Assembly: GCA_041389225.1 (NCBI GenBank)
Contig: JAWKSI010000001.1
Span: 51,821 to 115,820, forward strand
DNA length: 64,000 bases
Source of the DNA: Candidatus Doudnabacteria bacterium
GTDB taxonomy: Bacteria; Patescibacteriota; Doudnabacteria; UBA920
Direction of reading: 5' to 3'
Both the position numbers and the translations under genes were made by a program. This document shows, piece by piece, positions 11,871-25,129 of the stretch (position 1 is its first letter; each line of letters starts with the position of its first letter). The notes beneath the pieces are model-generated. The model searched no databases. It had not been told where the DNA came from and saw only the letters and a list, made by a program, of their open reading frames with translations.

Positions 11871-11961
11871 GGAGAGTTGGCTGAGTGGTCGAAAGCGCCT
11901 CACTGCTAACGAGGTAGGGGTTTATAGCCTCTCAAGGGTTCGAATCCCTTACTCTCCGCCA
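11871..11961 (+). tRNA. tRNA-Ser(GCT)
   Basis: GGAGAGT acceptor stem, D-arm GCTGAGTGGTCGAAAGC, anticodon loop cTGCTAa, long variable arm, T-arm GGGTTCGAATCCC, 3' end ACTCTCCGCCA. Confidence 0.85.
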
Positions 11962-12010
11962 CTAAAATTTTTATCGTGCAGACCTACACACTATCGATTT
12001 TAGGTTAAAT

Positions 12011-12040
12011 AAAACCGCCGTAAGGCGGTTTTATTTATTC
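12011..12040. terminator. bidirectional terminator (aaaaccgcc gtaa ggcggtttt)
   Basis: Hairpin flanked by A-runs and T-runs, between the tRNA and the vapC 3' end. Confidence 0.55.
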
Positions 12041-12510
12041 TATTTTAATTTTATATCTTTAGGTTTCAGTAAATTTATCCCTGGAACTATTTCGAAGTCG
12101 TCTTTACCATCCCTTGAGAGTATACTTTTAACATTATTATTTTTCATAATCACACAATGAAAAGCATCTCCCCAGCCAGGATTGTATAAATTCATATTTT
12201 CACCAACATCTGACCAAAAATCATCAAAGGTATAATTGCTGTTTTTATGTGTATCTAGGATAAAAAACTTAACATTATAGATCTTTGATGATCTTTGAAG
12301 CCTATTAATATCTGAAGCAACTTTTTTGGGCTTTATATTAAATTGATTTATTAATACTTTTGCCAGCTCAACAAAAGTAAATAATGAGGTTACAAACCTA
12401 ACACTCTCCATCCCACTTAGCACCTCAACAGCATTTTCTATTTCAGAGCTAAATTCATCTTTCATATACCATGAAACAAATATATTTGTATCTAAATATA
12501 TATCTTTCAT
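12040..12510 (-). CDS. vapC: PIN-domain protein (VapC-like toxin)
   Basis: The N-terminus MKDIYLDTNIFVSWY is typical of PIN domains (D..N, acidic residues). 156 aa. Confidence 0.7.
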   Translation of the reverse strand: MKDIYLDTNIFVSWYMKDEFSSEIENAVEVLSGMESVRFVTSLFTFVELAKVLINQFNIKPKKVASDINRLQRSSKIYNVKFFILDTHKNSNYTFDDFWSDVGENMNLYNPGWGDAFHCVIMKNNNVKSILSRDGKDDFEIVPGINLLKPKDIKLK

Positions 12511-12511
12511 T

Positions 12512-12667
12512 TTATTTCTTAGCTTTGAATTTTACTGGAACTTCAACCTTTACAGCTTTTTTAGCTTTAAATGAAACACTCTCACCATTTTTAGTTTTAA
12601 AACTAACAGTTACCGGCTTTTGGACTGTCTTGGTAGCCTTAAATTCAACAATTTTTTTGCGTGTCAT
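12512..12667 (-). CDS. unannotated 51-aa lysine-rich ORF (MTRKKIVEFKATKTVQKPVTVSFKTKNGESVSFKAKKAVKVEVPVKFKAKK), a candidate antitoxin partner of VapC
   Basis: Minus-strand translation from the ATG at 12667. Its stop overlaps the vapC start. It falls below the 60-aa cut-off of the ORF track. Confidence 0.4.
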   Translation of the reverse strand: MTRKKIVEFKATKTVQKPVTVSFKTKNGESVSFKAKKAVKVEVPVKFKAKK

Positions 12668-12676
12668 AATTCGATT

Positions 12677-13949
12677 CTACACCAATTTAAGAATCTTGTC
12701 TTCATACTTAATTTTAGATTTTAAATTAGACAATAATAATCTTTTCTCACTAATAGAGCCTTCTTTCAGCAAATATTTTGCATAATTTTTTATGTCAGCG
12801 TCTTTATTATTAGAGACACTCTTAATACCCAAGACACTGGATTGAAATTTATTAAACCTGCTTACTTCGAGCTCTAGCCTTTTCTTAATCCCCAGTTCAT
12901 CAATATCCGTATAATCAATAATTTTAGCTAACTGATCAATCAGCTCTTTTTCTCTAATATACTTGTTTTTACAAAACCTATCTTTAGCTCTAGTGCAGGA
13001 ATAATAAATGTATTTGTTTGACCCACCGTTTTTTAGCTCTTTCCATTTTTCTTCTGCTGATATTCCTGAGCCACACTTACCGCATATAAACATTTTAGTA
13101 AATGCGAATTCTTTAGATTGTCTAGAAATATTATTTCTCTTAAGTTGTTCCTGAACTTTATCAAATAACTCCTTGGTTATAATTGGCTTGTGTCTTCCTT
13201 GATAAACATTGCCGCTATTTCTTGGATATTCAAATTCTCCGTAATAAAAGGTGCTTTGAAGTATTTTGTAAACCGCCGAAAGTGTTACAGGTCTATTACC
13301 TCTTGTATAGAAGTTAAGCTCGAATCTTAACCAGTGATATAACTTTCTACCTGACCATTTTTCGTGAGCCACTTTTTCGAACATTTGTTTTATAACTAAG
13401 GCTCTCTGAGGATCCTGAATAACCACACCCTTTCTATCTGTGCGCTTTTGGTTTAGATAGCCCAAAGGTGCCATATTTGGCCAAAAACCAAGCTCTACGC
13501 GCGTCCTCAACCCTCTTTTAACATTTATACCACGATTGTCATTTTCTAGCTTAGCTTGAGACCCCAATATCATCAGCAAAAACTTTTCATTTGGATTATT
13601 AGAAAACTCTTGGCCGTATGTTCTAATTTTTTGCAATTGCCCTCCATCCATTAAATCGACAATAGATCCCAAGTCTCCAGCATTACGAGATAACCTATCA
13701 GGCGCCCAGGTGAGTATGCCGTTAAATTCTACCCTCTTTAATTTCGCTTAAGAGCTCATTAAAGACTGGTCTTTGATTAGTTTCTTTAGCAGAATGTGAT
13801 TCTTGTTTAATTGTCACAATCTCAAGCCGATCACGCTCTGCTATTTGTAGCATCTCTTTTATCTGTGAATCTATAGACATTACCTGCTTCTCGTCGCCCT
13901 CGGAGCTACCCCTTGCGTATAGACAATATCTTATCTTTATTTCTTCCAT
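12677..13949 (-). CDS. large serine recombinase: resolvase catalytic domain plus recombinase and zinc-ribbon domains, interrupted by one frameshift at about 13722-13730
   Basis: The N-terminal 75-aa ORF (YARGSS..Q) reads on in another frame as ...GILTWAPDRLSRNAGDLGSIVDLMDGGQ.... Removing one T from the attt run at the junction restores ...EGRINGILTW.... The C-terminus has Cys-rich CGKCGSG..YYSC. Confidence 0.8.
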
Positions 13950-14020: not shown

Positions 14021-14722
14021 TTAAGAATACTTATATTCGAGTTTCTCTTTGACTTTTTTCCAATTTGGTAGCTTCTTGTCTAAACAAGCAAAAAATAACT
14101 TATTATGCTTTCTATATTTAATATGGCATAGCTCATGGATTAAAACATAATCTATACAATCTTTAGATGCGTGAATAAGTTTTGGATTTAATGATACTTT
14201 TTTACCCTTAAGGAAACTTCCCCACCTCTTCGACATATTTCTTAGTTCTAACACCAAATCATTATTTTTCGGAAATAGCTTTTTCATCTTCTCAAACCTA
14301 TCCTCAAATACAACAACTGTTTTTTCTTTATACCACCGATCAATTAATATTTTTGTATACGAACTGTTCTTAACTGATTTACTTGTTCTCACCTCAAAGA
14401 CCCCTCTAAAGAGGCATATCGAATCAGCTTTAGCACTTTTAACTACTAATTTATATTGCCTACCTAAATATAATAAACTTTCCCCAGAAACATACTCACG
14501 TTTATATTCTTTTTTATTCACTCGATCAAAAAAGTCGAGCTGTTTATTCATCCAAAACCATTTTCGTTTTAAAAACTGTTCAACTTTATACAGGTCAATA
14601 TCCAAGGGACCTTTGACCACTATTTCTTTGCTCGGTTTAATCGTTAAAGATAAACTTTTGCGTTTTTGTTTTATTAATTGATATTGGTATTGGTAATTTC
14701 CGTATACAAATTTTTTGATCAT
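14021..14722 (-). CDS. WLM/DUF45 (YgjP-like) zinc metallopeptidase, a known companion of type I R-M operons
   Basis: HEXXH motif in DYVLIHELCHIKYRKHN. Lies immediately downstream of hsdR. Confidence 0.7.
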   Translation of the reverse strand: MIKKFVYGNYQYQYQLIKQKRKSLSLTIKPSKEIVVKGPLDIDLYKVEQFLKRKWFWMNKQLDFFDRVNKKEYKREYVSGESLLYLGRQYKLVVKSAKADSICLFRGVFEVRTSKSVKNSSYTKILIDRWYKEKTVVVFEDRFEKMKKLFPKNNDLVLELRNMSKRWGSFLKGKKVSLNPKLIHASKDCIDYVLIHELCHIKYRKHNKLFFACLDKKLPNWKKVKEKLEYKYS

Positions 14723-17700
14723 TAGATTATCTTATGGTTATTCTCTGCCAACTGCACGGCTTTTTCAATCACTTCTTTACTAGCTTCTGGGCTTAAATCC
14801 AAATCATATTCAACCCTTGCCACATCATACAAATAGTCGTCAATTTTATTCATCATCTTTCTTTTTACATCTAAATTTTTATGCCAATCCACTATACTTT
14901 CTTGTTTGATTATACCTATGATATCTAATATTACCGAGGTATAATTTTCGCCGTCTAAAGGTATTAAGTTCTGTAAATTTCTATACAGAATGTCAGCACC
15001 TTTAACAGCAGTTACTTTTTCTGGCAAGCCTTCATCTCTTTTATTTACCACTTGGTCTTCAATCAACCTTAATTGTTTTAAGGCTTCGATGTCTGCCAGT
15101 TTCTTTAATCTCATTTGATCTAAAATCTCTTGGATTTTTTGAAAAGCGATCATAAAATTCTGGATCAGACTCAACATTTTCTCTAATTGTCTTATCTGTC
15201 TGGGCCGCGATCGCTTCTGCTTTAGATTTGTCGGAACCTAGATTTTCTACTTCTTCTTGAAATGCATCTCGGTCGGTAATGTTAACTTGCTTAGTCAAAA
15301 GTTCTACCCCTTTTGCATCAACGTATTTATCCAGCACATCAATTAAAGACTGTTTGTATTCTCCTAAATCTACAGAATCACCATAAACCAAACTTGAAGC
15401 TTTTCTTAATTCCATAAATTTCTTTAGCTCTCTTTTATATAAATCAATGTGTTTAAATTCTTTTACAAAGTTTTGTAAGACGAGACATTCATTAAACTCA
15501 CGAATAAACTTATTCATAGTTTTATAAAATACATCTCTTTGCTGTTCATCCTCTAAATGTCTAATAAAAACCTCGTCATCTTTAGAACCCTTAACTTCTT
15601 TAAAAATATCGTGAAGTTCACCATATGAATGTTCCAGCGATTCTATTTTGTCATCTACATCAATTAAAGCACTCTTAACATCATCTTCATCATAATTACC
15701 AAATAGTTTCATTGCGGTATCAATATTCTTAGCATTTTCCGAATAGTCGACTATAAAACCAGCAGTTTTTGGCAAGACTTCATTTTCAAATAATCTATTG
15801 ACCCGAGCAATAGCTTGCAGTAAATTATGATCTCTTAAGTCTTTGGATAAATACAAAACTGTATTTCGTGGAGCATCAAATCCAGTAAGAAGCTTATCTA
15901 CCACTATAATAATCTCCACCCCATCTTCATTATTTTTAAAACTACTAATCACACCGTCTTCATAAGATTTTACACTAGAGTGATTAGCCCTAACTTCGCC
16001 CAAATAATCCACTACAGTCTTTTTATGGGTATTAACTTTATCTCCATCCTCATGTTCATCAGAAATCACTACAGCTGTATTGATCTTCCCACTAATTGCA
16101 AAAGCTCGCTGGAACAACACCGCAGAAAACTTTGATGGTGCTACAACCTGTGCCTTTAATCCAGTACCTTTAAAATTATCCAAAAAGTGTTTTTCTATAT
16201 CAAAAGCTATCTCTGCAATTCTCTGGGGATTGTCTTTAATAATTTTACTTCCTACATATTGCTGAATCTCTTGCTTTTGTTTGTCCGACATTCCAGCGGT
16301 AATCCGCTCGATATGTTTGTCGATCATGTCTTTATTCTGCACTAAATCGACATATCGACCCTCATAAATTAAAGGTAAAATAACTTTATCATCTAAGGCA
16401 TCATCAATTGTATACCTATCAATGTAGCTACCAAATTTTCTCCAACTTTCAGCTTCTTTTTTCATTAATGGAGTGCCTGTAAAGGCAATATAACAAGCGT
16501 TAGGAATTATCCGATTCATTTCCAAATTGGCAATCCCGGTTTGACTGCGGTGTGCTTCATCAATTAATACAAAAATATTTGAATCATTATCAACCAAGCC
16601 AGTTCGCTTTTTACTGGCTGATTCAAACTTATGCACCAAAGTAGTAATTACGTCCAAACTCTTATCTTTTATTAATCCTAATAAATGCTCGCCACTAGTG
16701 GCCTGGGTTACACCCTTTTTAAGATTACAGTTTTTAAAAGTATCTTTAATTTGTTTGTCTAAATCTTTACGATCTGTAACTACAATCACTCTTGGGTTGG
16801 TAATATTCGGATCTTCTATTAACGCTTTCACAAACATGACCATTGTTAAAGATTTACCTGACCCTTGAGTATGCCAAATTAACCCACCTTTTCTCTTACC
16901 TTCGCCATTAGCACCTTCTTCGTATTCATTAATTCGATTAAATATTTTACGGATTGCAAAATACTGTTGGTACCTGGAGATCTTTTTTATCCCAGCGTCA
17001 AAAACTATATAGTTTTTAGTTAAATCTAAAAGCCTGTCTGGTTTAAATAAAAACACCACACCTTTATCTTGTTCTGTTACCAATCTACTTGTATGTTGTG
17101 TAGTTTGTTCAGGAGATCCATTTAAATCTTTAACCAACTGATTATATACTTTTGGTTCAATTTGCCTTTGCATTACAGACAAAACCTCAGATTCTACTTC
17201 TTCTACACTTAAGCCTTTTTCCTTCCATGCGCTATAAAACTTATTAGGTGTTCCCGTGGTACCATATCTTAAGTCCTTACCATTAGTGCCAACTAATAGT
17301 TGAGCATATGTAAATAACTTAGGGCAATAATCTGCTCCCTGGTTGCGATTTTGTTGCGAGAAAGCCTTGTCTACATCTACGCTAGATTTTTTGTTTTCTA
17401 TTACTGCGAAGGGTATTCCGTTTACAAAACAAACAATGTCTGGGCGAATCTTTTGCTTTCCTTGGGCTTCAAATTCTACAGATACATGGTAGTCATTATT
17501 ATCTGGATTTTTAAAATCTATAAATCTAAAATTCTTAGAAACCTTTTTACCATCGTGATGCACGACTATTGTTTTCCCACCAGCCGTCGGCATAATAGTG
17601 TTAAACACTTCTTGTGAACTATCTATTAAGCCTTTGTATTCTAAATTCTCTAATTCATCAATTGCATCCCTAACATCCTTTTCTCCAAACTTATAGTTTT

Positions 17701-17896
17701 TACCATCTACTTCGTAACTATTAAGCTCCATTAGTTTTTTAGATGCAATATCGTGCAGCAAAAAAGTGCTTGAGTCATTTCCACGCAGCTGCATTATTTC
17801 TTCTCGAGAAATATATTTATATCCAAGATTAATCAATAACTCTACAAAAGGTAATTGTGATTGCCTGGCTTCATCAAAATGTACTTGTTCTAACAT
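14722..17896 (-). CDS. hsdR: Type I restriction enzyme R subunit HsdR, roughly 1060 aa if one frameshift at the A6 run (about 15160-15166) is corrected
   Basis: N-terminal HsdR nuclease region, SF2 helicase motifs (HTQGSGKSLT, FVLIDEAHRSQ) and a C-terminal domain carried by the 151-aa ORF. Reading A6 as A5 gives the continuous ...DPEFYDRFSKIQEILDQMRLKK.... Confidence 0.9.
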
Positions 17897-17998
17897 AATT
17901 TAGTAATTTAATTCCTATAAATAAGTGGGTTTTTATATTTGACATAAACATGATTTATGCTATAATACCTACATCAATACGAAAAGGGATCCGAACGG

Positions 17999-18544
17999 TT
18001 AATTACCTAAGGAGCCCTTTTCTTTTTGCATGATTTTACTTTTAATACTAGGATTTTCTAGTTGATCAAAATATTCTGCGCCAATTTTTTTATATAAAGA
18101 GGAAGCGTATTTTTTATTTGGAAATAATACCTTTAAAAACCTATTTTCGGATATCAAAAAATCAACGAGCATTTTATAGTCGCCATCGCCAGACACTAAG
18201 ACAACTTTATCAAAGTCATCTTTTTTATACATCTTTTTCATAATAGAAAAAATAATATCACAATCCACATTTCCTTTTTTATTTCCCAGCATTGCAGAAT
18301 TATGTTCTCTAAAGACTAAAACAAAACCGGCTTCTTGTATATCTGTATATAAATCTTGATAGTCTTCGTTAAGCCACCCTAAAAAATAATATGCAGTTTT
18401 AACCTTATATTTATTTGCCAAGTATACCCGAAATTTCTCCAAGTCTACTTTCCAAGGACTTATTTCATGCTTAGTGGTGCCCATAAATAAATTTTGCCCA
18501 TCAATATAGGCTAAATTATTTGGTTGTGATTGATAGTCATTCAT
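17999..18544 (-). CDS. NYN (LabA-like, PIN-superfamily) nuclease-domain protein
   Basis: AYIDGQNLF...DCDIIFSIM...VVLVSGDGDYKMLVDFL matches the NYN pattern (IDG.NL...D......VLVSGD.DF). Lies between hsdS and hsdR. Confidence 0.7.
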   Translation of the reverse strand: MNDYQSQPNNLAYIDGQNLFMGTTKHEISPWKVDLEKFRVYLANKYKVKTAYYFLGWLNEDYQDLYTDIQEAGFVLVFREHNSAMLGNKKGNVDCDIIFSIMKKMYKKDDFDKVVLVSGDGDYKMLVDFLISENRFLKVLFPNKKYASSLYKKIGAEYFDQLENPSIKSKIMQKEKGSLGN

Positions 18545-18552
18545 ATAAGATA

Positions 18553-19731
18553 CTACTTTACTTTTTCTAATAAGTCTTCTGGGGTTCTAATCTTCCCAGT
18601 AACTAAATTGTTTAATAAATATTTTTTCTGTTCTTGCCAGAGGGTAAGTTTTTTCTGGAGAGCGGCGATCTCATCATCAGCAGAGGTGAGAATATCAGCG
18701 ATTGCTTTTTGTTCCCTTAGTTCTGGAACACTATATTTAATAGACAGAAGTTCTGACTTATTCAACTTTGCTCTTGTTCCTCCGTTCAAATACATCAAAA
18801 CATTTTTATGCACCGTTGAATAAAAAAGGAAATCTTGAGAATTTTTTTCATTCGCTTTAATAACATGCGCATGATTGTTAACCCATGATTTCCCATATAC
18901 ACGATAAGCGATTGGTCGATTTTGATATTCATCAAATTGACCTCCATCTTCTGCAACCAGAATAATATCTTCATCAAAAAGATAATCATTTACATAATCA
19001 ACGATATTATTTGCACCGCAGTATGGAATAATGCCTTGCATTCTCGATCTTTCGTCAGAGTTTAATGGAACTCTCTTTGCGTCTAAACAAATAGCAATAT
19101 CTTTAAGTTTTACCTCTTTCCACTCGTCACTAAACCCAGGTAAACGTTTTTTGCCTGTGAGGAGTTGTTGCATCAAACCCTTTTTGATATTTTTCTTTAA
19201 AGCAATTTTCTTTTTAAGTTTTTCAATAGCCTCATCCCATGTTTCGAGAACAGTAGCGATACGGTTTTGTTCAAGGAGAGGGGGAAATTTCATGGGGCAA
19301 GAAAGTATGTCATCTTTTCGTAAGTTTGTTTGATTTACCCCATCATCAAAAGAAAGGAAGTAGCGATTTCTGCTTAGAGCAAGATATAAGAACTTCCTTG
19401 ATACCCCCTTTGCCCTAAATCCTCCAATTCTTTGATTTAGAGTATAAGTATTGTCTTTATTGACATAAAAACACTTTGCTATAGCTTTCCCATTTGGGAC
19501 ATCACTCATTACCATTGCAATGTCTCCTTTTTTTAAAGGGACCAAAAACTTATTTGAGTATTTTTTTATTTTTCCATTAGATGAAATAAATTTTGAATTC
19601 ACAACTACATAATTTCCGTTTTCATCAATATCTTTTTCATGCCCTTTTCCATTGAAAAAGTCTACTACTTCTCTGAGTTGTTTTTTTACCCACCCATTAG
19701 GAATATTTTGTTGTTTATTTCTGGTCTTCAT
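18553..19731 (-). CDS. hsdS: Type I restriction-modification specificity subunit HsdS (two target-recognition domains)
   Basis: 392 aa. The central and C-terminal conserved coiled regions (LLEQNRIATVLE.., LREQKAIADILTSADDEI) are typical of HsdS. Confidence 0.8.
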   Translation of the reverse strand: MKTRNKQQNIPNGWVKKQLREVVDFFNGKGHEKDIDENGNYVVVNSKFISSNGKIKKYSNKFLVPLKKGDIAMVMSDVPNGKAIAKCFYVNKDNTYTLNQRIGGFRAKGVSRKFLYLALSRNRYFLSFDDGVNQTNLRKDDILSCPMKFPPLLEQNRIATVLETWDEAIEKLKKKIALKKNIKKGLMQQLLTGKKRLPGFSDEWKEVKLKDIAICLDAKRVPLNSDERSRMQGIIPYCGANNIVDYVNDYLFDEDIILVAEDGGQFDEYQNRPIAYRVYGKSWVNNHAHVIKANEKNSQDFLFYSTVHKNVLMYLNGGTRAKLNKSELLSIKYSVPELREQKAIADILTSADDEIAALQKKLTLWQEQKKYLLNNLVTGKIRTPEDLLEKVK

Positions 19732-20208
19732 TTAATTTCTTTTTGATTGAATTCCTTGTTCAACCACAGCTTCTATATTTCTCGCAATCCAGTTATATGC
19801 ATCAGACCCTGCGTCATACACAGAAATATATTCTGATAAATTTTTGCCATTCTTTAAGCCGATTTTTATAAACGGGTTAATGCCCTTGGAACATGTTCCT
19901 GTTCGTGGGTCCCTGAGATTATGAATGTATATTCCGACCAATCCTTTTTTACTATTCCATGCTTTTTCTATTTCATACTTTACCCACTTGCTTTTATGAG
20001 TCTCCGCTCCAATCAAAACAACAACACAAGAAGATTTTTCTATGTTTTCGTCAATCCACCGACGTATCGCCGCATCTCCACCTCTTTTAATTTCTTCCCA
20101 TCTATTTGGGGTGACGGGTTTATTAGCTTCAATAACACCTATGTTTCTAATTTGTTGTACTCTCATTACATCATTACGAAAATGAAAGCTGTAAAATATA
20201 TTCCTCAT
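19732..20208 (-). CDS. ThsB-like TIR-domain protein (DUF1863 / MTH538 TIR-like family), 158 aa
   Basis: NIFYSFHFRNDVMRVQQIRN...NRWEEIKRGGDAAIRRWIDENIEKSSCVVVLIGAETHKSKWVKYEIEKA...GLVGIYIHNLRD...SKGINPF aligns motif-by-motif with Thoeris ThsB-type proteins (VFFSFHY.D...RV..VRN, VLIG..T..R.WV.YEI.K, IGIHI...KD, KG.NPF). The gene is wedged between hsdM and hsdS, and its stop abuts the hsdS start. Confidence 0.75.
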   Translation of the reverse strand: MRNIFYSFHFRNDVMRVQQIRNIGVIEANKPVTPNRWEEIKRGGDAAIRRWIDENIEKSSCVVVLIGAETHKSKWVKYEIEKAWNSKKGLVGIYIHNLRDPRTGTCSKGINPFIKIGLKNGKNLSEYISVYDAGSDAYNWIARNIEAVVEQGIQSKRN

Positions 20209-20214
20209 AATTAA

Positions 20215-20612
20215 AATATACTAATTAATATTACTAATAAAATAGTGGGTATATAAAATAACTTTAAGGTATTGGACCACATGCAATACAAAATAGCAGT
20301 GTCACGCAATGAATTAAATTTAGAAACAGACATTGAATAATCTATAAGTGCTTCATCTTTGATATTTCTAACTTCATCATATAAATGCCTGTATTTGCGC
20401 TCTAAAGATAAAAATAAGCATCATGAATCCAAAATATCATGATTACCAAAATCAATATAATCTGCAATTCATTTCTACAAATTCTAAAAATGCTGCTGCT
20501 AACGCCACAACTAGTGTTATCATCCATCCTCTCAGGGTGAATAGATTATTTCCCATGCGAGAAATAACCTCTTGAATCATTTGCAAATGTGCAATCTTTT
20601 TGTTATCCGACA
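20215..20612 (-). pseudogene. small membrane protein gene (about 165 aa, two predicted TM segments) broken into three frames
   Basis: Minus-strand ATG at 20612 gives MSDNKKIAHLQMIQEVISRMGNNLFTLRGWMITLVVALAAAFLEFVEM. The reading continues in the other two frames as NELQIILILVIMIFWIHDAYFYL and ERKYRHLYDEVRNIKDEALIDYSMSVSKFNSLRDTAILYCMWSNTLKLFYIPTILLVILISIF. It lies directly upstream of the TIR gene. Confidence 0.4.
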
Positions 20613-20626
20613 TATTAATTTTTGAC

Positions 20627-22129
20627 TATTTAATACTCATAGCCTTTAAGTATTTTTTCATCTGTTCTTCAAGCTCTTTCAATTCTGGCTCAAGCTTCGA
20701 CAACTCCTGTAGTTTTGCTCCAATATCTACTGGTCTTCTTCAAGATATCGACATATCTTGTAATATTTAGATTAAAATCATTTTCTTTAATCTCTTTAAA
20801 CTTAACCACACGAGCAAACTTCTCGACATCTTTACGATCTTTGTAGCTTTTAAAGATTTTATCTATGTTTTCTTCGGTTAAAGTATTTTGAGCTTTCCCA
20901 GATTTATACTCTTTAGACGCCTCGATAAACATGACATCTTTTTTGCTCTCATTCTCTGCCCCTGCCTCACGAGATCTGTCTATCACCAAAATAGCTACAG
21001 GAATACCGGTAGTAGAGAATAGTCCTGCAGGCAGGCCAATAACAGCATCAATCAAGTTTTCTTCTAGTAACTGCTTTCTAATTTTCCCTTCAGCGCCACC
21101 TCTAAATAACACACCATGAGGCACTATAATAGCTCCACGACCTGTTTTAGGTTTTAAGGTTTCTACCATATGGCTGATAAAAGCATAGTCACCTTTGTCT
21201 TTAGGTGGCACTCCACGGTGAAAACGGTTAAATGGATCACCTTCGGCATTTTCGGCTCCCCATTTTTTTAGACTAAAAGGAGGATTAGCTACTGCAACAT
21301 CAAATTTAATTAATTTACCATTTTCTACTAGCAGTGGATTATTTAAAGTATCACCCCACTCAAGTCGGGCAGAGTCTTTGCCATGCAAGAACATGTTCAT
21401 ACGAGCTAGCTGGTAAGTAGAACCCGTGGATTCTTGTCCATATAAAGCGTAATCGTTTGACCCTTGAGATTCTACTTCTTCTCCTGCTAACAAAAGTAAA
21501 CCACCTGAGCCAACAGCGAAATCACAAATACGATCTCCAGGTTTTGGTTGAGCAAGTTTGGCCACCAATTTTGCAACATTCCTAACAGTAAAAAATTCTC
21601 CTGCCTTTTTTCCTGCGTCTGCACCAAATCGCTCGATCATATACATATAAGATTCGCCGAGAACATCCTCACCAACTTCAGACAAATCAATCTTATTAAA
21701 ATCCTGCATCAAGTGCCTGATCATTTTATTACGTTGATCAAGCTTGCCTAAGATTGACTCATTATTAAAGTCTACAGAAAAAATTCCTTCGAGCTTATCA
21801 CGATTCTCTTCTTCTATTTTATGAAGAGCTTTATTAATCTCTTCACCAATATTGTCAGATTCTATCTTTTCGTATAAAGCATCAAATGTAGCTTCTTCTG
21901 GAATATAAAAACGATCGAGTTTCATCTTTTCTTCGACACGCTTCTTATCACCCTGGTAACGCTCTACATACTCAGCCCTTTTTATTTTAGAAATGTCACT
22001 GACATATTTAAAGAAAAGCATTACTAATACATAATCTTTATACACTCCAGCATCAACAGATGTCCTAGAAGAATCCGCTGCCTGCCAAAGCACTTTATTT
22101 AATTCTGGTTGTGTTATTTTTTTAGACAT
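20627..22129 (-). CDS. hsdM: Type I R-M N6-adenine DNA methyltransferase HsdM. The annotated stop at 20690 is probably a 1-nt indel, and the reading continues to 20627 as ...ELEPELKELEEQMKKYLKAMSIK.
   Basis: N-terminal HsdM domain and NPPF motif (VAVANPPFSLKKW). A typical coiled C-terminus is recovered after a 1-nt correction near 20695. Confidence 0.9.
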
Positions 22130-22709
22130 TATTTTGTAGTTTAAGAAAAATGGTCTTTAGTATATCGCGTTTTAGCTGCTTTTGTTTGTCGTGGAGGTTT
22201 ATCTGCTTAATAACATTATTATACAAATCAACTATAGTTTTTTGTTGTTCTAGACTAGGTAATAAGATAGAAGTTTCACCTAAGACAGATTTAGATATGT
22301 GCATAATAGTACTTCCTCTGGCTTTTTGCATTATTTCTGATTGAAAAGCAGGTGAGTTTAAGTAAAAATTTAAGTACTCAGGATTAACCTTTTTGTCTTT
22401 GATTCTAATAATATACAAAGAGGAGTTTGCCATTGATTTTTGTTCGCTTTGAACCAGGGAAGATCTAAATTCTTTCCCGGGAGTACTGCGGGACAACATT
22501 AGAATATCATTCTGGTGTATCACTGCTGGAGACCTGGCTGGTAAACTTTCTAGCTTAGGTAAATTACTCAGCTCCGATATCTTGGTATTGCTTACAATGT
22601 CAGATGCTTGCACCACTGGATATTGGCCGTTTTCAGAGTAGTCCTTAATATAGATTGCTGCCCCAGATATAATATCGACAAGATCTTTTAACATAATATT
22701 TGAACTCAT
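22122..22709 (-). CDS. hsdS: half-size HsdS (single target-recognition domain), overlapping the hsdM start
   Basis: 195 aa. It has a TRD-like region and the conserved C-terminal helix (LEQQKTIVDLYNNVIKQINLHDKQKQLKRDIL). Confidence 0.6.
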   Translation of the reverse strand: MSSNIMLKDLVDIISGAAIYIKDYSENGQYPVVQASDIVSNTKISELSNLPKLESLPARSPAVIHQNDILMLSRSTPGKEFRSSLVQSEQKSMANSSLYIIRIKDKKVNPEYLNFYLNSPAFQSEIMQKARGSTIMHISKSVLGETSILLPSLEQQKTIVDLYNNVIKQINLHDKQKQLKRDILKTIFLKLQNNV

Positions 22710-22739
22710 ACAGACATTATACTAAGTTATAATTTTCTG

Positions 22740-23153
22740 TCAAATATTTTGATTATTTTTCTTAATCCCTGCAGCTTTAGCAATAATATCTGCCAAAGTA
22801 TGGGCTTCTTTTAGGTTTTCTGGGATTTCTTGTTCTTTTGAATAGACAATTCTAATGGTCTTATCACTACTATCTTTACTCGAGTAATGTTTATTATTAT
22901 GCTTTAATGCAAATTTTATTAAATCGCTCTTCCCTTCCTGTATCCCTTGTATCAGAGCATTTTCTGCAATATCCCCAATATTTTCTTTACCCTCTTTAAT
23001 TGCTTTATTAGTTTGAGCGGTAAACCGTTTACTAGATTTCCTTAATCTGTAATAGCTTGCCTTGCTGAATCCAGTCTTTTTACAGGAATACAAAACATTG
23101 CCAGTTTTTTCTAGCTCAGTTAAGAATCTTTGTTTTTGATCTTTAGAAATCAT
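22740..23153 (-). CDS. hypothetical protein with an N-terminal HTH (KKTGFSKASYYRLRK)
   Basis: ORF with an HTH-like motif. Its stop overlaps the start of the upstream methyltransferase. Confidence 0.4.
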   Translation of the reverse strand: MISKDQKQRFLTELEKTGNVLYSCKKTGFSKASYYRLRKSSKRFTAQTNKAIKEGKENIGDIAENALIQGIQEGKSDLIKFALKHNNKHYSSKDSSDKTIRIVYSKEQEIPENLKEAHTLADIIAKAAGIKKNNQNI

Positions 23154-23905
23154 TTTGTAAGAGATTGGTATCTATCGATAATTACTTGGCAGTAATTTAA
23201 GTCTATTTCAAAAGCAATACATTTCCTGCGTGTTTGCTCGCATGCAAGTAAAGTTGACCCAGAACCTGCAAACAAATCCAGTACTGTATCACCTATATTA
23301 CTACTATTTAAAATCATCTCTCTTAAAAGCGGTAGGGGCTTCATCGTTGGATGAAGTTTGCTTTTCTGCGGTTTTGGATAAAACAAAGCTGATTTACTTT
23401 TGGATTTATAAAATTTATGCCTGCCGTGCCAGCCGTAATAGATGAGTTAGTGCTGTGGTAAATAATCGAGTCGTCCTATCACTGGCTTATTTTTTACCCA
23501 GACAAGCATTTGCCCAAGTTTAATCTGTACTTTATCGCAAGCTTTCTTTAATGCAAAAATTAACTTATCTGAATTAAAAATATATATTGAATTATGTTCT
23601 GCAAAATATGGCGCAATGTTTTGCAGCCACCCAACAGAAAACTCCTTATAACTCTCTTCTGACTGCACTTCATCTCCAATTATTTCTGTATCATTACTTA
23701 ATTCTGCAAACTTGTATTTACTTTTTGTATAATCTACGCCGTAAGGCGGATCGGTGAGTAATAAATTAATTTTCTTTCCTGTTAATGCCTGATCCACCAA
23801 GTCTTTATCACGGCTATCACCGCAAACAAGAATATGACTACCAAGTTCGACTATACTGCCGTACTTAATTAAGTTTTTTGGCTTTTTGTCCTGTAAGTTC
23901 TTCAT
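23150..23905 (-). pseudogene. ParB-associated N6/N4 DNA methyltransferase (second copy) interrupted by an in-frame TAA at 23447-23449
   Basis: LLLTDPPYGV motif in the N-terminal part. HPTMKPLPLL and FAGSGST motifs in the C-terminal part. The two ORFs are in the same frame: ...DYLPQH*LIYYGWHGRHKFY.... Confidence 0.7.
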
Positions 23906-25129
23906 ATCTATTGATAATTAATTGTGTAAAGATAGGTGATTGCTCAATTACAAAAGCCTTTCGCTTTAATTGCTCGCAAGCAAGAAGCTCACTACCACTG
24001 CCTCCGAAACCGATAAAAATATTGTCTCCGGGTTTACTACGCCTCAGTAGTGGTCGTTCAAATAAAGACACGGGCTTCTGGGTTGGGTGCTCATAACTGC
24101 CCTGCGATTCTTTCGTCAACCAAATATCAATCATATCTTCAATGTTAGAAATGGTAGCATTACCAGTTCCAACATTGGATTTAATATCTCGTGGAAGTTT
24201 TTATGTTTATCAGATAAATATGGCTTCCCAAGAGTTCCATAAATTACTGGCTCATAGCACTTATTAAATCCAGATTTTGGAGTACAGTTGATCCCATTTT
24301 TGATCCAGACGCAAGTCCGCTTATAACTAATGCCTAGATTTTTATATATTGTTTGAACCAATCCTACGTTCCGCTGATCATTCCATATAAATATGTGAAC
24401 GTCGGGTTTTGTAATTTTAAGGCTAGTAGATATAGCTTTAGTTAAGAACTTCTCGTACTCATCACTCGACAAGTTATCGTTAAAATGTCCTCCATACTGA
24501 GATTTCCCAGATATTCCTTTATCATAATCCATGCAGATTCCATATGGCGGGTCACTAAGAATCATATCCATCTTTTCTCCGTTAGTTACTTTTAAAACAT
24601 CTGTTTCTTCAGTGCTGTCGCCGCAAAGTAGATAGTGATTTCCAAGTTTGAATAAATCCCCAGTTTTTATCTTTGTGTGTTTTGCCTGCTCTTCTTGCTG
24701 GGGCTTAATATCTAAATCTTCAAGAGAAATTTGGTTATCCCAAATATCACTTAACTCATTTTGACCAAACCCTATATCGAGCAACAAGTCTAAATCAAAT
24801 TCCTTCAAAAGCTCGTTGTTCCATGACCCAGTATTCTGGTTACTTCTAAGCAAATATTCTTCAAGCTCTGTTTTGTTCAGAAGACGACTTGGTACACGAA
24901 CTTCTATTTCTTCATCTGTTCTGCCAAGTAGCTTTAATATTTTGAGCCTTTGATGACCACTAATTACTGTGCCATCAAGATTAATAGCAATAAGCTCTAC
25001 ATAGTTAAACCGTTTAAAACTTTCAGTTAAGTGCTCTTTTTGAGTTTCGGACAAAGTCCTTGGATTTTTGTCGTAAGGAATTAAATCCTTAACTAGTCTT
25101 TTTTGCGTAGACCAAACTAAATTTTTCAT
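23865..25129 (-). CDS. ParB-like nuclease domain fused to an N6/N4 DNA methyltransferase, split by a frameshift at an A5 run (about 24196-24200)
   Basis: N-terminal ParB-like region (LIPYDKNPRTLSE), MTase motifs ILSDPPYGI, EHPTQKPV and FIGFGGSGS. Reading A5 as A6 gives the continuous ...DKHKKLPRDIKSNVGTGNATISNIEDMIDIWL.... Confidence 0.75.

What the first reader, a model, noticed from the sequence alone, without database searches (positions are those of the whole stretch)
19732..20208. Stand-alone ThsB-like TIR (DUF1863) protein
The 158-aa protein matches the Thoeris ThsB / MTH538 TIR-like family motif-by-motif. The matching blocks are the N-terminal (V/I)F(Y/F)SFH(F/Y).D, R(V)..(V/I)RN, the central VV(L)IG..T..(R/K)WV.YEI.K and the C-terminal (I)GI(H/Y)IH.L(K/R)D ... 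KG.NPF. No ThsA (SIR2/SLOG or Macro) gene is nearby. The neighbours are instead a short 2-TM protein gene and a NYN nuclease.
Basis: partly seen in the sequence, partly recalled or inferred. Interest (0 to 1): 0.65.

Follow-up and report, generated by a model that had tools for sequence, protein, structure and literature searches.

The report
Thoeris TIR gene with broken partner
The ORF is a genuine ThsB-type TIR immune-signalling gene, but it is not stand-alone: it is half of a known two-gene anti-phage cassette nested inside a type I restriction operon. Its membrane-effector partner is broken by two frameshifts, so this copy is probably a decaying remnant.

Summary
Window 19732-20208 (-) encodes a 158-aa ThsB-family TIR protein: Pfam PF08937 E=1e-27, PADLOC ThsB E=2e-64, 49% identical to the crystal structure 8WCF. 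Its Glu79 aligns with the catalytic Glu of B. cereus ThsB.

"Stand-alone" is wrong. The short membrane-protein gene just upstream (20211-20613) is the cognate partner, PADLOC candidate PDC-M50A, a roughly 135-aa protein with three transmembrane helices. It lies next to this TIR clade in 46 of 80 genomes. Here two single-base deletions break it.

The pair sits between hsdM and hsdS of a type I restriction-modification operon. The closest relatives have the same arrangement with an intact partner gene. PDC-M50 was proposed in 2024 because it is found embedded in such systems. Cross-referencing a 2025 preprint indicates the partner family is what those authors call ThsF, the type V Thoeris effector, which responds to 3'cADPR. 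The current Pfam DUF2270 model does not detect it, however.

hsdM, hsdR and two further methylase genes are also frameshifted, in a low-GC island next to tRNA-Ser. The copy is therefore probably decaying.

Verdict: a new, probably defunct member of a known kind. Interest is modest.

The parts
19732..20208 (-). thsB: intact 158-aa ThsB-family TIR protein (PADLOC PDC-M50B). The predicted catalytic residue is Glu79, in WVKYEIEKAW. The stop codon directly abuts the hsdS start (TAAATG).
   Evidence: It is 100% identical to an NCBI protein annotated 'TIR domain-containing protein [Candidatus Doudnabacteria bacterium]'.
20211..20613 (-). Pseudogene of the partner effector (PDC-M50A, probably the ThsF family of type V Thoeris). 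It would encode about 134 aa with three predicted transmembrane helices. Two single-base deletions, at about 20478/20479 and 20411/20412, break the frame. The stop lies 2 nt before the thsB ATG.
   Evidence: The three ORF fragments hit the N- and C-terminal parts of the PDC-M50A profile. The reconstructed protein hits it full length, E=3.5e-35. A DNA alignment with three intact orthologues shows the two 1-nt gaps. The AF2 model of the orthologue P0124 has pLDDT 91.
20690..22129 (-). hsdM, the type I methyltransferase. Its 3' end is frameshifted just after codon RYVD (about 20745-20758); the conserved C-terminus continues in another frame.
   Evidence: Pfam N6_Mtase E=1e-96 and HsdM_N.
22122..22709 (-). 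Half-size hsdS (a single target-recognition domain), the first gene of the operon.
   Evidence: Pfam Methylase_S E=1.6e-16. The same gene occupies the same position in L010, L093 and L095.
22716..22743 (-). A 12/12 match to the sigma-70 consensus, just upstream of the operon. It is a candidate operon promoter.
   Evidence: This is a consensus match only, and promoters of candidate-phyla-radiation (CPR) bacteria are not characterised.
18553..19731 (-). Full-length hsdS specificity subunit, immediately downstream of thsB.
   Evidence: Pfam Methylase_S E=1e-44; PADLOC Specificity_I E=1.5e-64.
17999..18544 (-). NYN-domain protein in the second variable slot of the operon, between hsdS and hsdR. 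It is separate cargo and not part of the TIR cassette.
   Evidence: Pfam NYN E=1.4e-15. It has no homologue in any of the 88 related loci. Relatives carry other genes in this slot.
14722..17896 (-). hsdR, the type I restriction subunit, split by a frameshift into 945-aa and 151-aa ORFs that overlap at 15059-15177.
   Evidence: Pfam hits.

Best explanation
The ORF is the thsB gene (a TIR-domain, NAD+-consuming signal synthase) of a two-gene Thoeris-type abortive-infection cassette. In intact relatives the cassette works as follows. ThsB senses phage infection and converts NAD+ into a cyclic-ADP-ribose-type signal, most likely 3'cADPR. That signal activates the co-transcribed small effector with three transmembrane helices (PADLOC PDC-M50A, probably the ThsF family of type V Thoeris). 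The effector oligomerises and breaches the membrane, which stops phage replication. The cassette is nested between hsdM and hsdS of a type I restriction-modification operon, and the whole unit lies on a horizontally acquired island next to tRNA-Ser in a Candidatus Doudnabacteria genome. In this copy the effector gene carries two frameshifts, and hsdM, hsdR and two neighbouring methylase genes are also frameshifted. The TIR ORF is therefore most likely an as-yet-unhit remnant of a decaying defence island, not a working stand-alone enzyme. Shown here: the family assignment, the conserved Glu, the conserved pairing, the embedding and the frameshifts. Inferred: the identity of the signal, the membrane-disruption mechanism and the loss of function.
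For: TIR identity:
- Searches give the family hits. The AF2 model matches 8WCF 'EcThsB' with TM 0.80 and B. cereus ThsB with TM 0.67-0.69.
- Glu79 is invariant in 25 homologues. It aligns with the YEI Glu of B. cereus ThsB.

Partner gene:
- The reconstructed upstream gene hits PDC-M50A full length, E=3.5e-35.
- An M50A gene is adjacent and co-oriented with the TIR in 46 of 80 genome loci. Most of the rest carry ThsA SIR2-SLOG (21) or a SLOG protein (6) instead. This is effector swapping, typical of Thoeris, and it points to a ThsA-compatible signal.
- SLOG-M50A fusion proteins exist: P0331 hits Pfam SLOG cluster2 (LD_cluster2) at E=1.7e-15. P0304 has no Pfam hit; its N-terminal region resembles that of P0331 by eye.

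Link to type V Thoeris:
- The TIR IMG 2518998441, labelled 'DUF2270 - Type V' in Table S1 of Yirmiya et al. 2025, is 100% identical to the L073 TIR. The only partner of that TIR is an M50A member.
- TIRs 47-49% identical to the experimentally verified B. thuringiensis type V ThsB sit beside M50A members on two Bacillaceae plasmids (hhalign probability 100%).
- The same preprint reports that ThsF has three membrane-spanning helices and responds to 3'cADPR.

Embedding:
- The relatives examined in detail (L009-L012, L093/L094, L095; 68-86% identical) share hsdM-...-A-TIR-hsdS-...-hsdR with an intact A gene.

Decay:
- Two 1-nt deletions in A.
- The window's A is 10-18 identity points more diverged than expected from its TIR, unlike pairs of intact genes.
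- hsdM and hsdR are frameshifted, and two methylases are split.
- Long ORFs elsewhere in the window are uninterrupted.
- The island has 32-36% GC against 37-43% in the flanks.
Against: - No biochemical or phage data exist for this protein or for its close relatives.
- The Pfam DUF2270 model does not detect any M50A member: best E=0.13, in 1 of the 35 distinct members scanned. The equation with ThsF therefore rests on cross-referencing a table that its authors call noisy.
- Type XI Thoeris TIRs, whose signal is unknown, are also about 47% identical to this TIR. 3'cADPR is therefore not certain.
- The sequence comes from a metagenome-assembled genome, so the indels could be assembly errors or population variants.
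- The TIR ORF keeps every invariant residue, so continued function cannot be excluded.
Confidence: 0.72

Rival explanations
1. The frameshifts are sequencing or assembly artefacts, or minority variants, of the metagenome-assembled genome. In the living cell the A-TIR cassette and the type I RM operon are intact and confer defence.
For: The source is a MAG. One deletion lies in a T-run, T6 to T5. All conserved residues of A survive in the reconstructed protein.
Against: At least six frame disruptions cluster in about 12 kb of the island, while more than 25 kb of long ORFs elsewhere in the window are uninterrupted. The other A deletion is GG to G, not a long homopolymer. The amino-acid sequence of A is also excessively diverged relative to its TIR, which indel errors would not cause.
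Confidence: 0.17
2. The TIR works on its own or in trans. It either acts directly as an NAD+-depleting effector, or it supplies a signal to an effector encoded elsewhere in the genome. In this reading its intactness after loss of the partner reflects selection.
For: The ORF is full length with all family-invariant residues. Stand-alone and effector-type bacterial TIRs are known: Yirmiya et al. list the classes they excluded.
Against: This clade is almost always paired with an effector gene: 73 of 80 loci. No ThsA, SLOG protein or second M50A is present in the 64-kb window. At the island's frameshift density, about one per 2 kb, a 477-nt gene escapes a hit by chance about 80% of the time (own calculation). 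Intactness is therefore weak evidence. The TIR lies in an operon that is itself decaying.
Confidence: 0.08
3. The cassette is functionally coupled to the restriction enzyme in the way PrrC is. ThsB is held inactive by, or monitors, the HsdMS(R) complex and fires when a phage anti-restriction protein disables it.
For: The insertion between hsdM and hsdS is conserved across the relatives examined in detail, with overlapping or abutting gene junctions. Type I RM genes were found near 8 of 46 A-associated loci and near none of the 27 ThsA- or SLOG-associated loci. PrrC provides the precedent.
Against: Most A-TIR pairs (38 of 46) have no type I RM genes within 8 kb. On plasmids the pair stands without RM genes. 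Payne et al. show that embedding is common for many otherwise independent systems. The slots also hold unrelated cargo: NYN, an ATPase, Bro-N, an extra TIR.
Confidence: 0.07

Closest known systems
PADLOC candidate system PDC-M50 (Payne, Hughes, Fineran & Jackson 2024, bioRxiv 10.1101/2024.01.29.577857): cassette FAM_00415>>FAM_00416, 57 RefSeq instances
   Same: Both genes hit the PDC-M50 models: B at E=3.6e-57 and A, once reconstructed, at E=3.5e-35 over the full length. The gene order is A then TIR. The cassette is embedded in a type I RM operon, which is the criterion by which the candidate was defined.
   Different: Here the A gene is a pseudogene. The host is a candidate-phyla-radiation (CPR) bacterium (Doudnabacteria). 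PDC-M50 itself is an untested candidate.
Type V Thoeris, ThsB + ThsF ('DUF2270' effector with three transmembrane helices, signal 3'cADPR; Yirmiya et al. 2025, bioRxiv 10.64898/2025.12.03.692087)
   Same: It is a two-gene operon of a TIR and a small effector with three transmembrane helices. TIRs of this clade are listed as 'DUF2270 - Type V' in their Table S1, and one of them is identical to the TIR of a locus whose only partner is an M50A member. Homologues of the verified B. thuringiensis ThsB neighbour M50A proteins.
   Different: The current Pfam PF10028 HMM does not score any M50A member above noise. The verified type V ThsB proteins belong to other TIR clades, with a long N-terminal extension. 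The signal of this TIR clade has not been measured.
Type I Thoeris ThsB of Bacillus cereus MSX-D12 (PDB 6LHY, 9B7D) and 'EcThsB' (PDB 8WCF)
   Same: The family is the same (PF08937) and so is the fold (TM 0.67-0.80). The YEI catalytic Glu and the F-x-S-F-H N-terminal strand are shared. In 21 of 80 genomes, TIRs 55-60% identical to this one are paired with SIR2-SLOG ThsA.
   Different: There is no ThsA here; the partner is a membrane protein. Identity to B. cereus ThsB is 32% over the TIR domain by BLASTP and 23-25% in the structure-based alignment.
PrrC anticodon nuclease in the EcoprrI type IC locus, and TgvAB in the Vibrio cholerae VPI-2 type I RM cluster
   Same: An independent abortive-infection or restriction module is nested inside a type I hsd operon.
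   Different: The proteins and their chemistry are unrelated. No evidence here shows that the TIR cassette senses the state of the restriction enzyme.

Membership tests
ThsB_TIR / DUF1863 (Pfam PF08937) | Profile match above the curated threshold | tested here: met
   96.5 bits against a cut-off of 21.2, E=1.3e-27, covering profile positions 1-99 of 100. PADLOC ThsB E=2.4e-64.
ThsB_TIR / DUF1863 (Pfam PF08937) | Flavodoxin-like TIR fold | tested here: met
   AF2 model with pLDDT 76. Foldseek: 8WCF E=2e-15, TM 0.80; 9B7D and 6LHY ThsB TM 0.67-0.69; other TIRs and DNPH1 further down the list.
ThsB_TIR / DUF1863 (Pfam PF08937) | Catalytic glutamate in the W-x-x-x-E helix (E85 of B. cereus ThsB; this numbering comes from my own knowledge of Ofir et al. 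2021) | tested here: met
   Glu79 (WVKYEIEK) aligns with the Glu in RWVRYEIMK of 6LHY/9B7D. It is invariant in 25 homologues.
ThsB_TIR / DUF1863 (Pfam PF08937) | NAD+ cleavage or cyclisation activity triggered by phage | not testable with these tools
   Requires enzyme and infection assays.
Type I Thoeris (ThsA SIR2-SLOG + ThsB) | An adjacent ThsA gene with SIR2 and SLOG domains | tested here: not met
   phmmer with ThsA and SLOG proteins from related loci finds nothing in any frame of the 64-kb window.
PADLOC PDC-M50 | Adjacent, co-oriented genes that match the M50A and M50B models | tested here: met
   B: E=3.6e-57. A fragments: 8e-14 and 6e-3. A reconstructed: 3.5e-35 over 3-133 of 134. The A stop lies 2 nt from the TIR start. 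Caveat: A is frameshifted.
Type V Thoeris (ThsF effector) | Effector is a member of Pfam DUF2270 (PF10028) | tested here: not met
   None of the 35 distinct M50A-family proteins scanned reaches the 25-bit cut-off. The best is 12.3 bits, E=0.13, in one member. No precomputed Pfam domain appears on the 93 proteins returned or the 120 listed.
Type V Thoeris (ThsF effector) | Effector belongs to the protein cluster that Yirmiya et al. call ThsF and lies next to thsB | tested here: inconclusive
   Support is indirect. The Table S1 row 2518998441 'DUF2270 - Type V' equals the L073 TIR, whose only partner is an M50A member. Homologues of the B. thuringiensis type V ThsB neighbour M50A genes.
Type V Thoeris (ThsF effector) | Small effector with three membrane-spanning helices | tested here: met
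   Three hydrophobic segments at about 25-45, 50-70 and 116-134 in four members. The AF2 model has helices 3-46, 49-85 and 115-133.
Type VII Thoeris / SLATT effectors | Pfam SLATT domain in the effector | tested here: not met
   The only hit is one sub-threshold SLATT_6 match, E=0.086, among the 35 distinct members scanned.
PrrC-type restriction guardians | Embedded in a type I hsd operon | tested here: met
   The order is hsdS'-hsdM-A-TIR-hsdS-NYN-hsdR, and it is conserved in relatives.
PrrC-type restriction guardians | ABC-ATPase plus anticodon-nuclease domains; activation when the restriction enzyme is inhibited | tested here: not met
   Neither cassette protein has such domains. Activation could not be tested.

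The most novel reading that the evidence does not exclude
In this clade, insertion of the TIR/effector cassette between hsdM and hsdS is not just a convenient landing site. It reflects functional coupling: the ThsB sensor monitors the type I restriction complex, or is co-regulated with it, and triggers Thoeris signalling when phage anti-restriction proteins disable the complex. That would make it a TIR-based restriction guardian, analogous to PrrC.
Probability: 0.07. Interest if true: 0.65.

Novelty: new member of a known kind. Interest (0 to 1): 0.3.

Why it matters
The finding matters mostly as annotation. It shows that a gene that looks like an orphan TIR is half of a recognised cassette (PDC-M50, probably type V Thoeris), and that this copy is probably dead.

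Three by-products have modest wider value:
- The partner family is very large (5,722 clusters at 50% identity) yet is not covered by any Pfam model. It probably links the untested PADLOC candidate PDC-M50 to the experimentally verified type V Thoeris.
- One clade of type I restriction operons in candidate-phyla-radiation (CPR) and other bacteria has two variable slots that collect defence cargo.
- CPR bacteria with tiny genomes carry, and lose, such nested immune islands.

Tried and rejected
- Pfam scans of the partner gene (window reconstruction plus 34 homologues) gave no significant family. DUF3278 (8 of 26 members, best E=2e-4), DUF2270, SLATT_6, DUF6769 and 8xMP all stayed below threshold.
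- The AFDB fold library was unavailable, so the structural test against DUF2270 models could not be run.
- The exact-sequence look-up of the NCBI protein P0001 failed, because its annotated start is one codon upstream of the window ATG.
- Literature searches for 'PDC-M50', '8WCF' and '8xMP' found nothing useful.
- A search for att-type direct repeats bounding the island found only chance-level short repeats.
- Rfam found only the two tRNAs.
- Two B. cereus/Priestia plasmid homologues of the type V ThsB (H1, H2) have no adjacent small membrane gene. They did not help.
- I considered the NYN gene as a possible effector for the TIR and rejected it. None of the 88 related loci has a NYN homologue, and hsdS separates it from the TIR.

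Full report
**1. The observation**

Window 19732-20208 (minus strand) is a clean 158-aa ORF. It matches Pfam ThsB_TIR (PF08937) at 96.5 bits against a cut-off of 21.2 (E=1.3e-27). It also passes TIR_2. In PADLOC it matches a ThsB model at E=2.4e-64 and the candidate-system protein PDC-M50B at E=3.6e-57.

Against solved structures it aligns over its full length with 8WCF (E=8.8e-46). It aligns with B. cereus ThsB (6LHY, 9B7D) at E=1.8e-17. Glu79 is invariant in an alignment of 25 homologues.

An AlphaFold2 model (pLDDT 76) superposes on 8WCF, 'Crystal structure of EcThsB', with TM 0.80 and 49% identity. It superposes on B. cereus ThsB with TM 0.67-0.69.

The protein is 100% identical to an NCBI entry annotated 'TIR domain-containing protein [Candidatus Doudnabacteria bacterium]'. 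The host is therefore a candidate-phyla-radiation (CPR, Patescibacteria) bacterium.

**2. The gene is not stand-alone**

Immediately upstream, at 20211-20613, three short ORFs lie in three different frames. Two of them hit the N- and C-terminal ends of the PADLOC model PDC-M50A. When the frames are joined, the 134-135-aa product hits that model end to end (E=3.5e-35).

A DNA alignment with three intact orthologues shows exactly two single-base gaps in the window. One is GG to G at 20478/20479. The other is T6 to T5 at 20411/20412. The stop of this gene is 2 nt from the TIR ATG, and the TIR stop abuts the next start codon (TAAATG). This layout indicates one transcription unit.

**3. The pairing is conserved**

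A scan of one genome per species returned 80 loci encoding TIRs 52-78% identical to this one, from many phyla. The partners are distributed as follows.

| Partner next to the TIR | Loci (of 80) |
|---|---|
| M50A-family gene, adjacent and co-oriented, in either order | 46 |
| Canonical SIR2-SLOG ThsA (type I Thoeris) | 21 |
| Protein of about 196 aa matching the query I judged SLOG-like (not checked against Pfam), with extra TIRs | 6 |
| Truncated or unclear | 7 |

Such effector swapping around one TIR clade is the pattern Yirmiya et al. 2025 used to define new Thoeris types. It implies that this TIR is a signal generator and not an NAD+-depleting effector. It also suggests that the signal is one ThsA can read, most likely 3'cADPR. 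That last step is inference. Type XI TIRs, whose signal is unknown, are also about 47% identical to this one.

**4. What the partner is**

The M50A family is large: 5,722 representatives at 50% identity with E<=1e-3, of which 4,272 have E<=1e-10.

No Pfam family covers it. The 93 proteins returned and the 120 listed carry no precomputed Pfam domain. Direct scans of 35 distinct members give only sub-threshold noise. The best DUF2270 hit is E=0.13 in one member.

Hydropathy shows three transmembrane segments. A confident AF2 model (pLDDT 91) shows a long helical hairpin, residues 3-46 and 49-85, plus a C-terminal helix at 115-133.

The conserved polar residues are Gln15, Arg20, Asp66, Glu73, Arg74, Arg77, Tyr80 and Arg84. 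They lie on the N-terminal helix and on the helix just after the second transmembrane segment. I infer that this face is cytoplasmic and is a plausible nucleotide-binding surface.

Fusions of an N-terminal SLOG-like region to an M50A module exist. P0331 hits Pfam SLOG cluster2 (LD_cluster2) at E=1.7e-15. P0304 has no Pfam hit; its N-terminal region resembles that of P0331 by eye. These fusions support M50A as a membrane output module of cADPR-type signalling.

**5. Relation to published systems**

PDC-M50 is one of 145 untested candidates that Payne et al. [quoted passage not shown] It is their cassette FAM_00415>>FAM_00416, with 57 RefSeq instances.

Yirmiya et al. 2025 verified type V Thoeris. 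There ThsB makes 3'cADPR, and the effector ThsF ('DUF2270', three membrane-spanning helices) is modelled as a ring-shaped homo-oligomer with basic pockets.

Two cross-references tie M50A to their ThsF:
- Their Table S1 lists TIRs with the motif DVMRVQQIRN, characteristic of this clade, as 'DUF2270 - Type V'. One such entry (IMG 2518998441) is 100% identical to the TIR of locus L073 (Salinimonas chungwhensis). The only candidate partner there is an M50A member.
- TIRs 47-49% identical to the verified B. thuringiensis DAR 81934 type V ThsB lie next to M50A-family genes on Terribacillus plasmid pT1 and on Priestia megaterium plasmid p1. The Terribacillus protein matches the M50A profile with hhalign probability 100% (E=3e-46).

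The authors warn that their effector labels are representative-based and noisy. Pfam DUF2270 does not detect M50A. I therefore rate 'M50A = ThsF' as probable, about 80%, and not proven.

**6. Genomic setting**

The minus-strand order of the operon is as follows.

| Position | Gene |
|---|---|
| 22122-22709 | half-size hsdS |
| 20690-22129 | hsdM |
| 20211-20613 | A pseudogene |
| 19732-20208 | thsB |
| 18553-19731 | hsdS |
| 17999-18544 | NYN-domain gene |
| 14722-17896 | hsdR |
| 14021-14722 | YgjP-like metallopeptidase |

A 12/12 sigma-70 consensus match sits just upstream, at 22743-22716.

The closest metagenomic relatives are L093/L094, whose TIR is 86% identical. They carry hsdS'-hsdM-A-TIR-hsdS-hsdR with an intact 139-aa A gene. 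L095 and the genome loci L009-L012 share the arrangement, with extra cargo in two slots:
- The slot between hsdM and A holds a second TIR, an ATPase or a Bro-N protein.
- The slot between hsdS and hsdR holds a 729-aa ATPase, or proteins of 227 aa or 75 aa.

The window's NYN gene occupies the second slot. It has no homologue in any related locus, so it is independent cargo.

Type I RM genes were seen near 8 of the 46 A-associated loci. They were seen near none of the 27 ThsA- or SLOG-associated loci.

Nesting of independent defence modules in type I operons has precedents: PrrC in EcoprrI and TgvAB in the V. cholerae island VPI-2.

**7. State of this copy**

The operon carries several other frame disruptions besides the two in A:
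- hsdM is frameshifted about 45 codons before its end. The conserved C-terminus continues in another frame.
- hsdR is split into ORFs of 945 and 151 aa.
- Two N6_N4 methylase genes at 23150-25129 are each in two pieces.

In contrast, the many long ORFs elsewhere in the window, up to 4.2 kb, are uninterrupted (ClpB).

The reconstructed A protein is also 10-18 identity points more diverged from its orthologues than its TIR is. Among intact relatives of the same A subclade, A is roughly as conserved as the TIR, often more.

The block from 12 to 26 kb has 32-36% GC against 37-43% in the flanks. It begins next to tRNA-Ser and contains a serine-recombinase gene.

Together these points indicate a horizontally acquired defence island that is genuinely decaying. 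They argue against random sequencing error, although read-level confirmation is still needed. At roughly one disruption per 2 kb, a 477-nt gene would stay intact by chance about 80% of the time (own calculation). The intact TIR ORF is therefore not evidence of retained function.

**8. Verdict**

The 'stand-alone' reading is wrong.

The feature is the thsB half of a Thoeris-type cassette (PDC-M50, probably type V) embedded in a type I restriction operon, with its effector pseudogenised. It is a new and probably defunct member of a known kind. Interest is modest (0.3).

The most novel reading that the evidence does not exclude is functional coupling between the TIR sensor and the restriction complex. 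I put that at about 7%.

Noticed in passing
window 17999-18544 (-): A 181-aa NYN-domain (LabA-like) protein is inserted between hsdS and hsdR. None of the 88 related loci has a homologue, and relatives carry other genes in this slot. It may be an independent embedded defence or RNase candidate. It has weak PADLOC hits to NYN and HEC-09.
   Followed up: partly
window 20740-20760; 15059-15177; 23150-25129: More frame disruptions lie in the same island. The hsdM 3' end is frameshifted, hsdR is split into 945 + 151 aa, and two N6_N4 DNA methylase genes are each split in two. One of the methylase genes (24131-25129) has an unassigned N-terminal region of about 190 aa ahead of its methylase domain.
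   Followed up: partly
window 11871-13672: tRNA-Ser(GCT) is followed directly by a PIN-domain gene (12040-12510) and a serine-recombinase gene. The recombinase ORF starts with TTG and shows only the Recombinase and Zn-ribbon domains. The low-GC island (32-36%) extends from here to about 26 kb. No att-like direct repeat was found.
   Followed up: partly
window 17939-17966 (+) and 22716-22743 (-): There are two perfect 12/12 sigma-70 consensus matches. The minus-strand one precedes the operon. The plus-strand one lies in the hsdR-NYN intergenic gap and points antisense into NYN and hsdS.
   Followed up: no
proteins P0331, P0304, P0370: The M50A module occurs in fusions. In P0331 it follows a Pfam SLOG cluster2 domain. 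In P0304 it follows a similar N-terminal region with no Pfam hit. In P0370 it follows an '8xMP' octameric-membrane-protein domain (PF24838), whose profile (136 positions) is about the same length as M50A. 8xMP and M50A may be related small oligomeric membrane modules.
   Followed up: partly
L009 7075-7566; L010 7075-7581: Two relatives carry a second, divergent ThsB paralogue between hsdM and the A gene (order TIR2-A-TIR). The window has only a 76-nt spacer at that position.
   Followed up: no
plasmid hits H15, H22, H25: M50A homologues (35-37% identity) occur on haloarchaeal plasmids (Halorussus, Halorhabdus, Natrinema) and on 51 plasmids in all, 21 of them conjugative. The effector family therefore spans Bacteria and Archaea and is mobile.
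   Followed up: no
L012 5940-8129; L011 5595-7046: Large P-loop ATPases with GxxGxGK(T/S) motifs sit in the variable slots of related type I operons. I guess they may be PrrC/RloC-like or ABC-type embedded defence genes; no family search was run on them.
   Followed up: no
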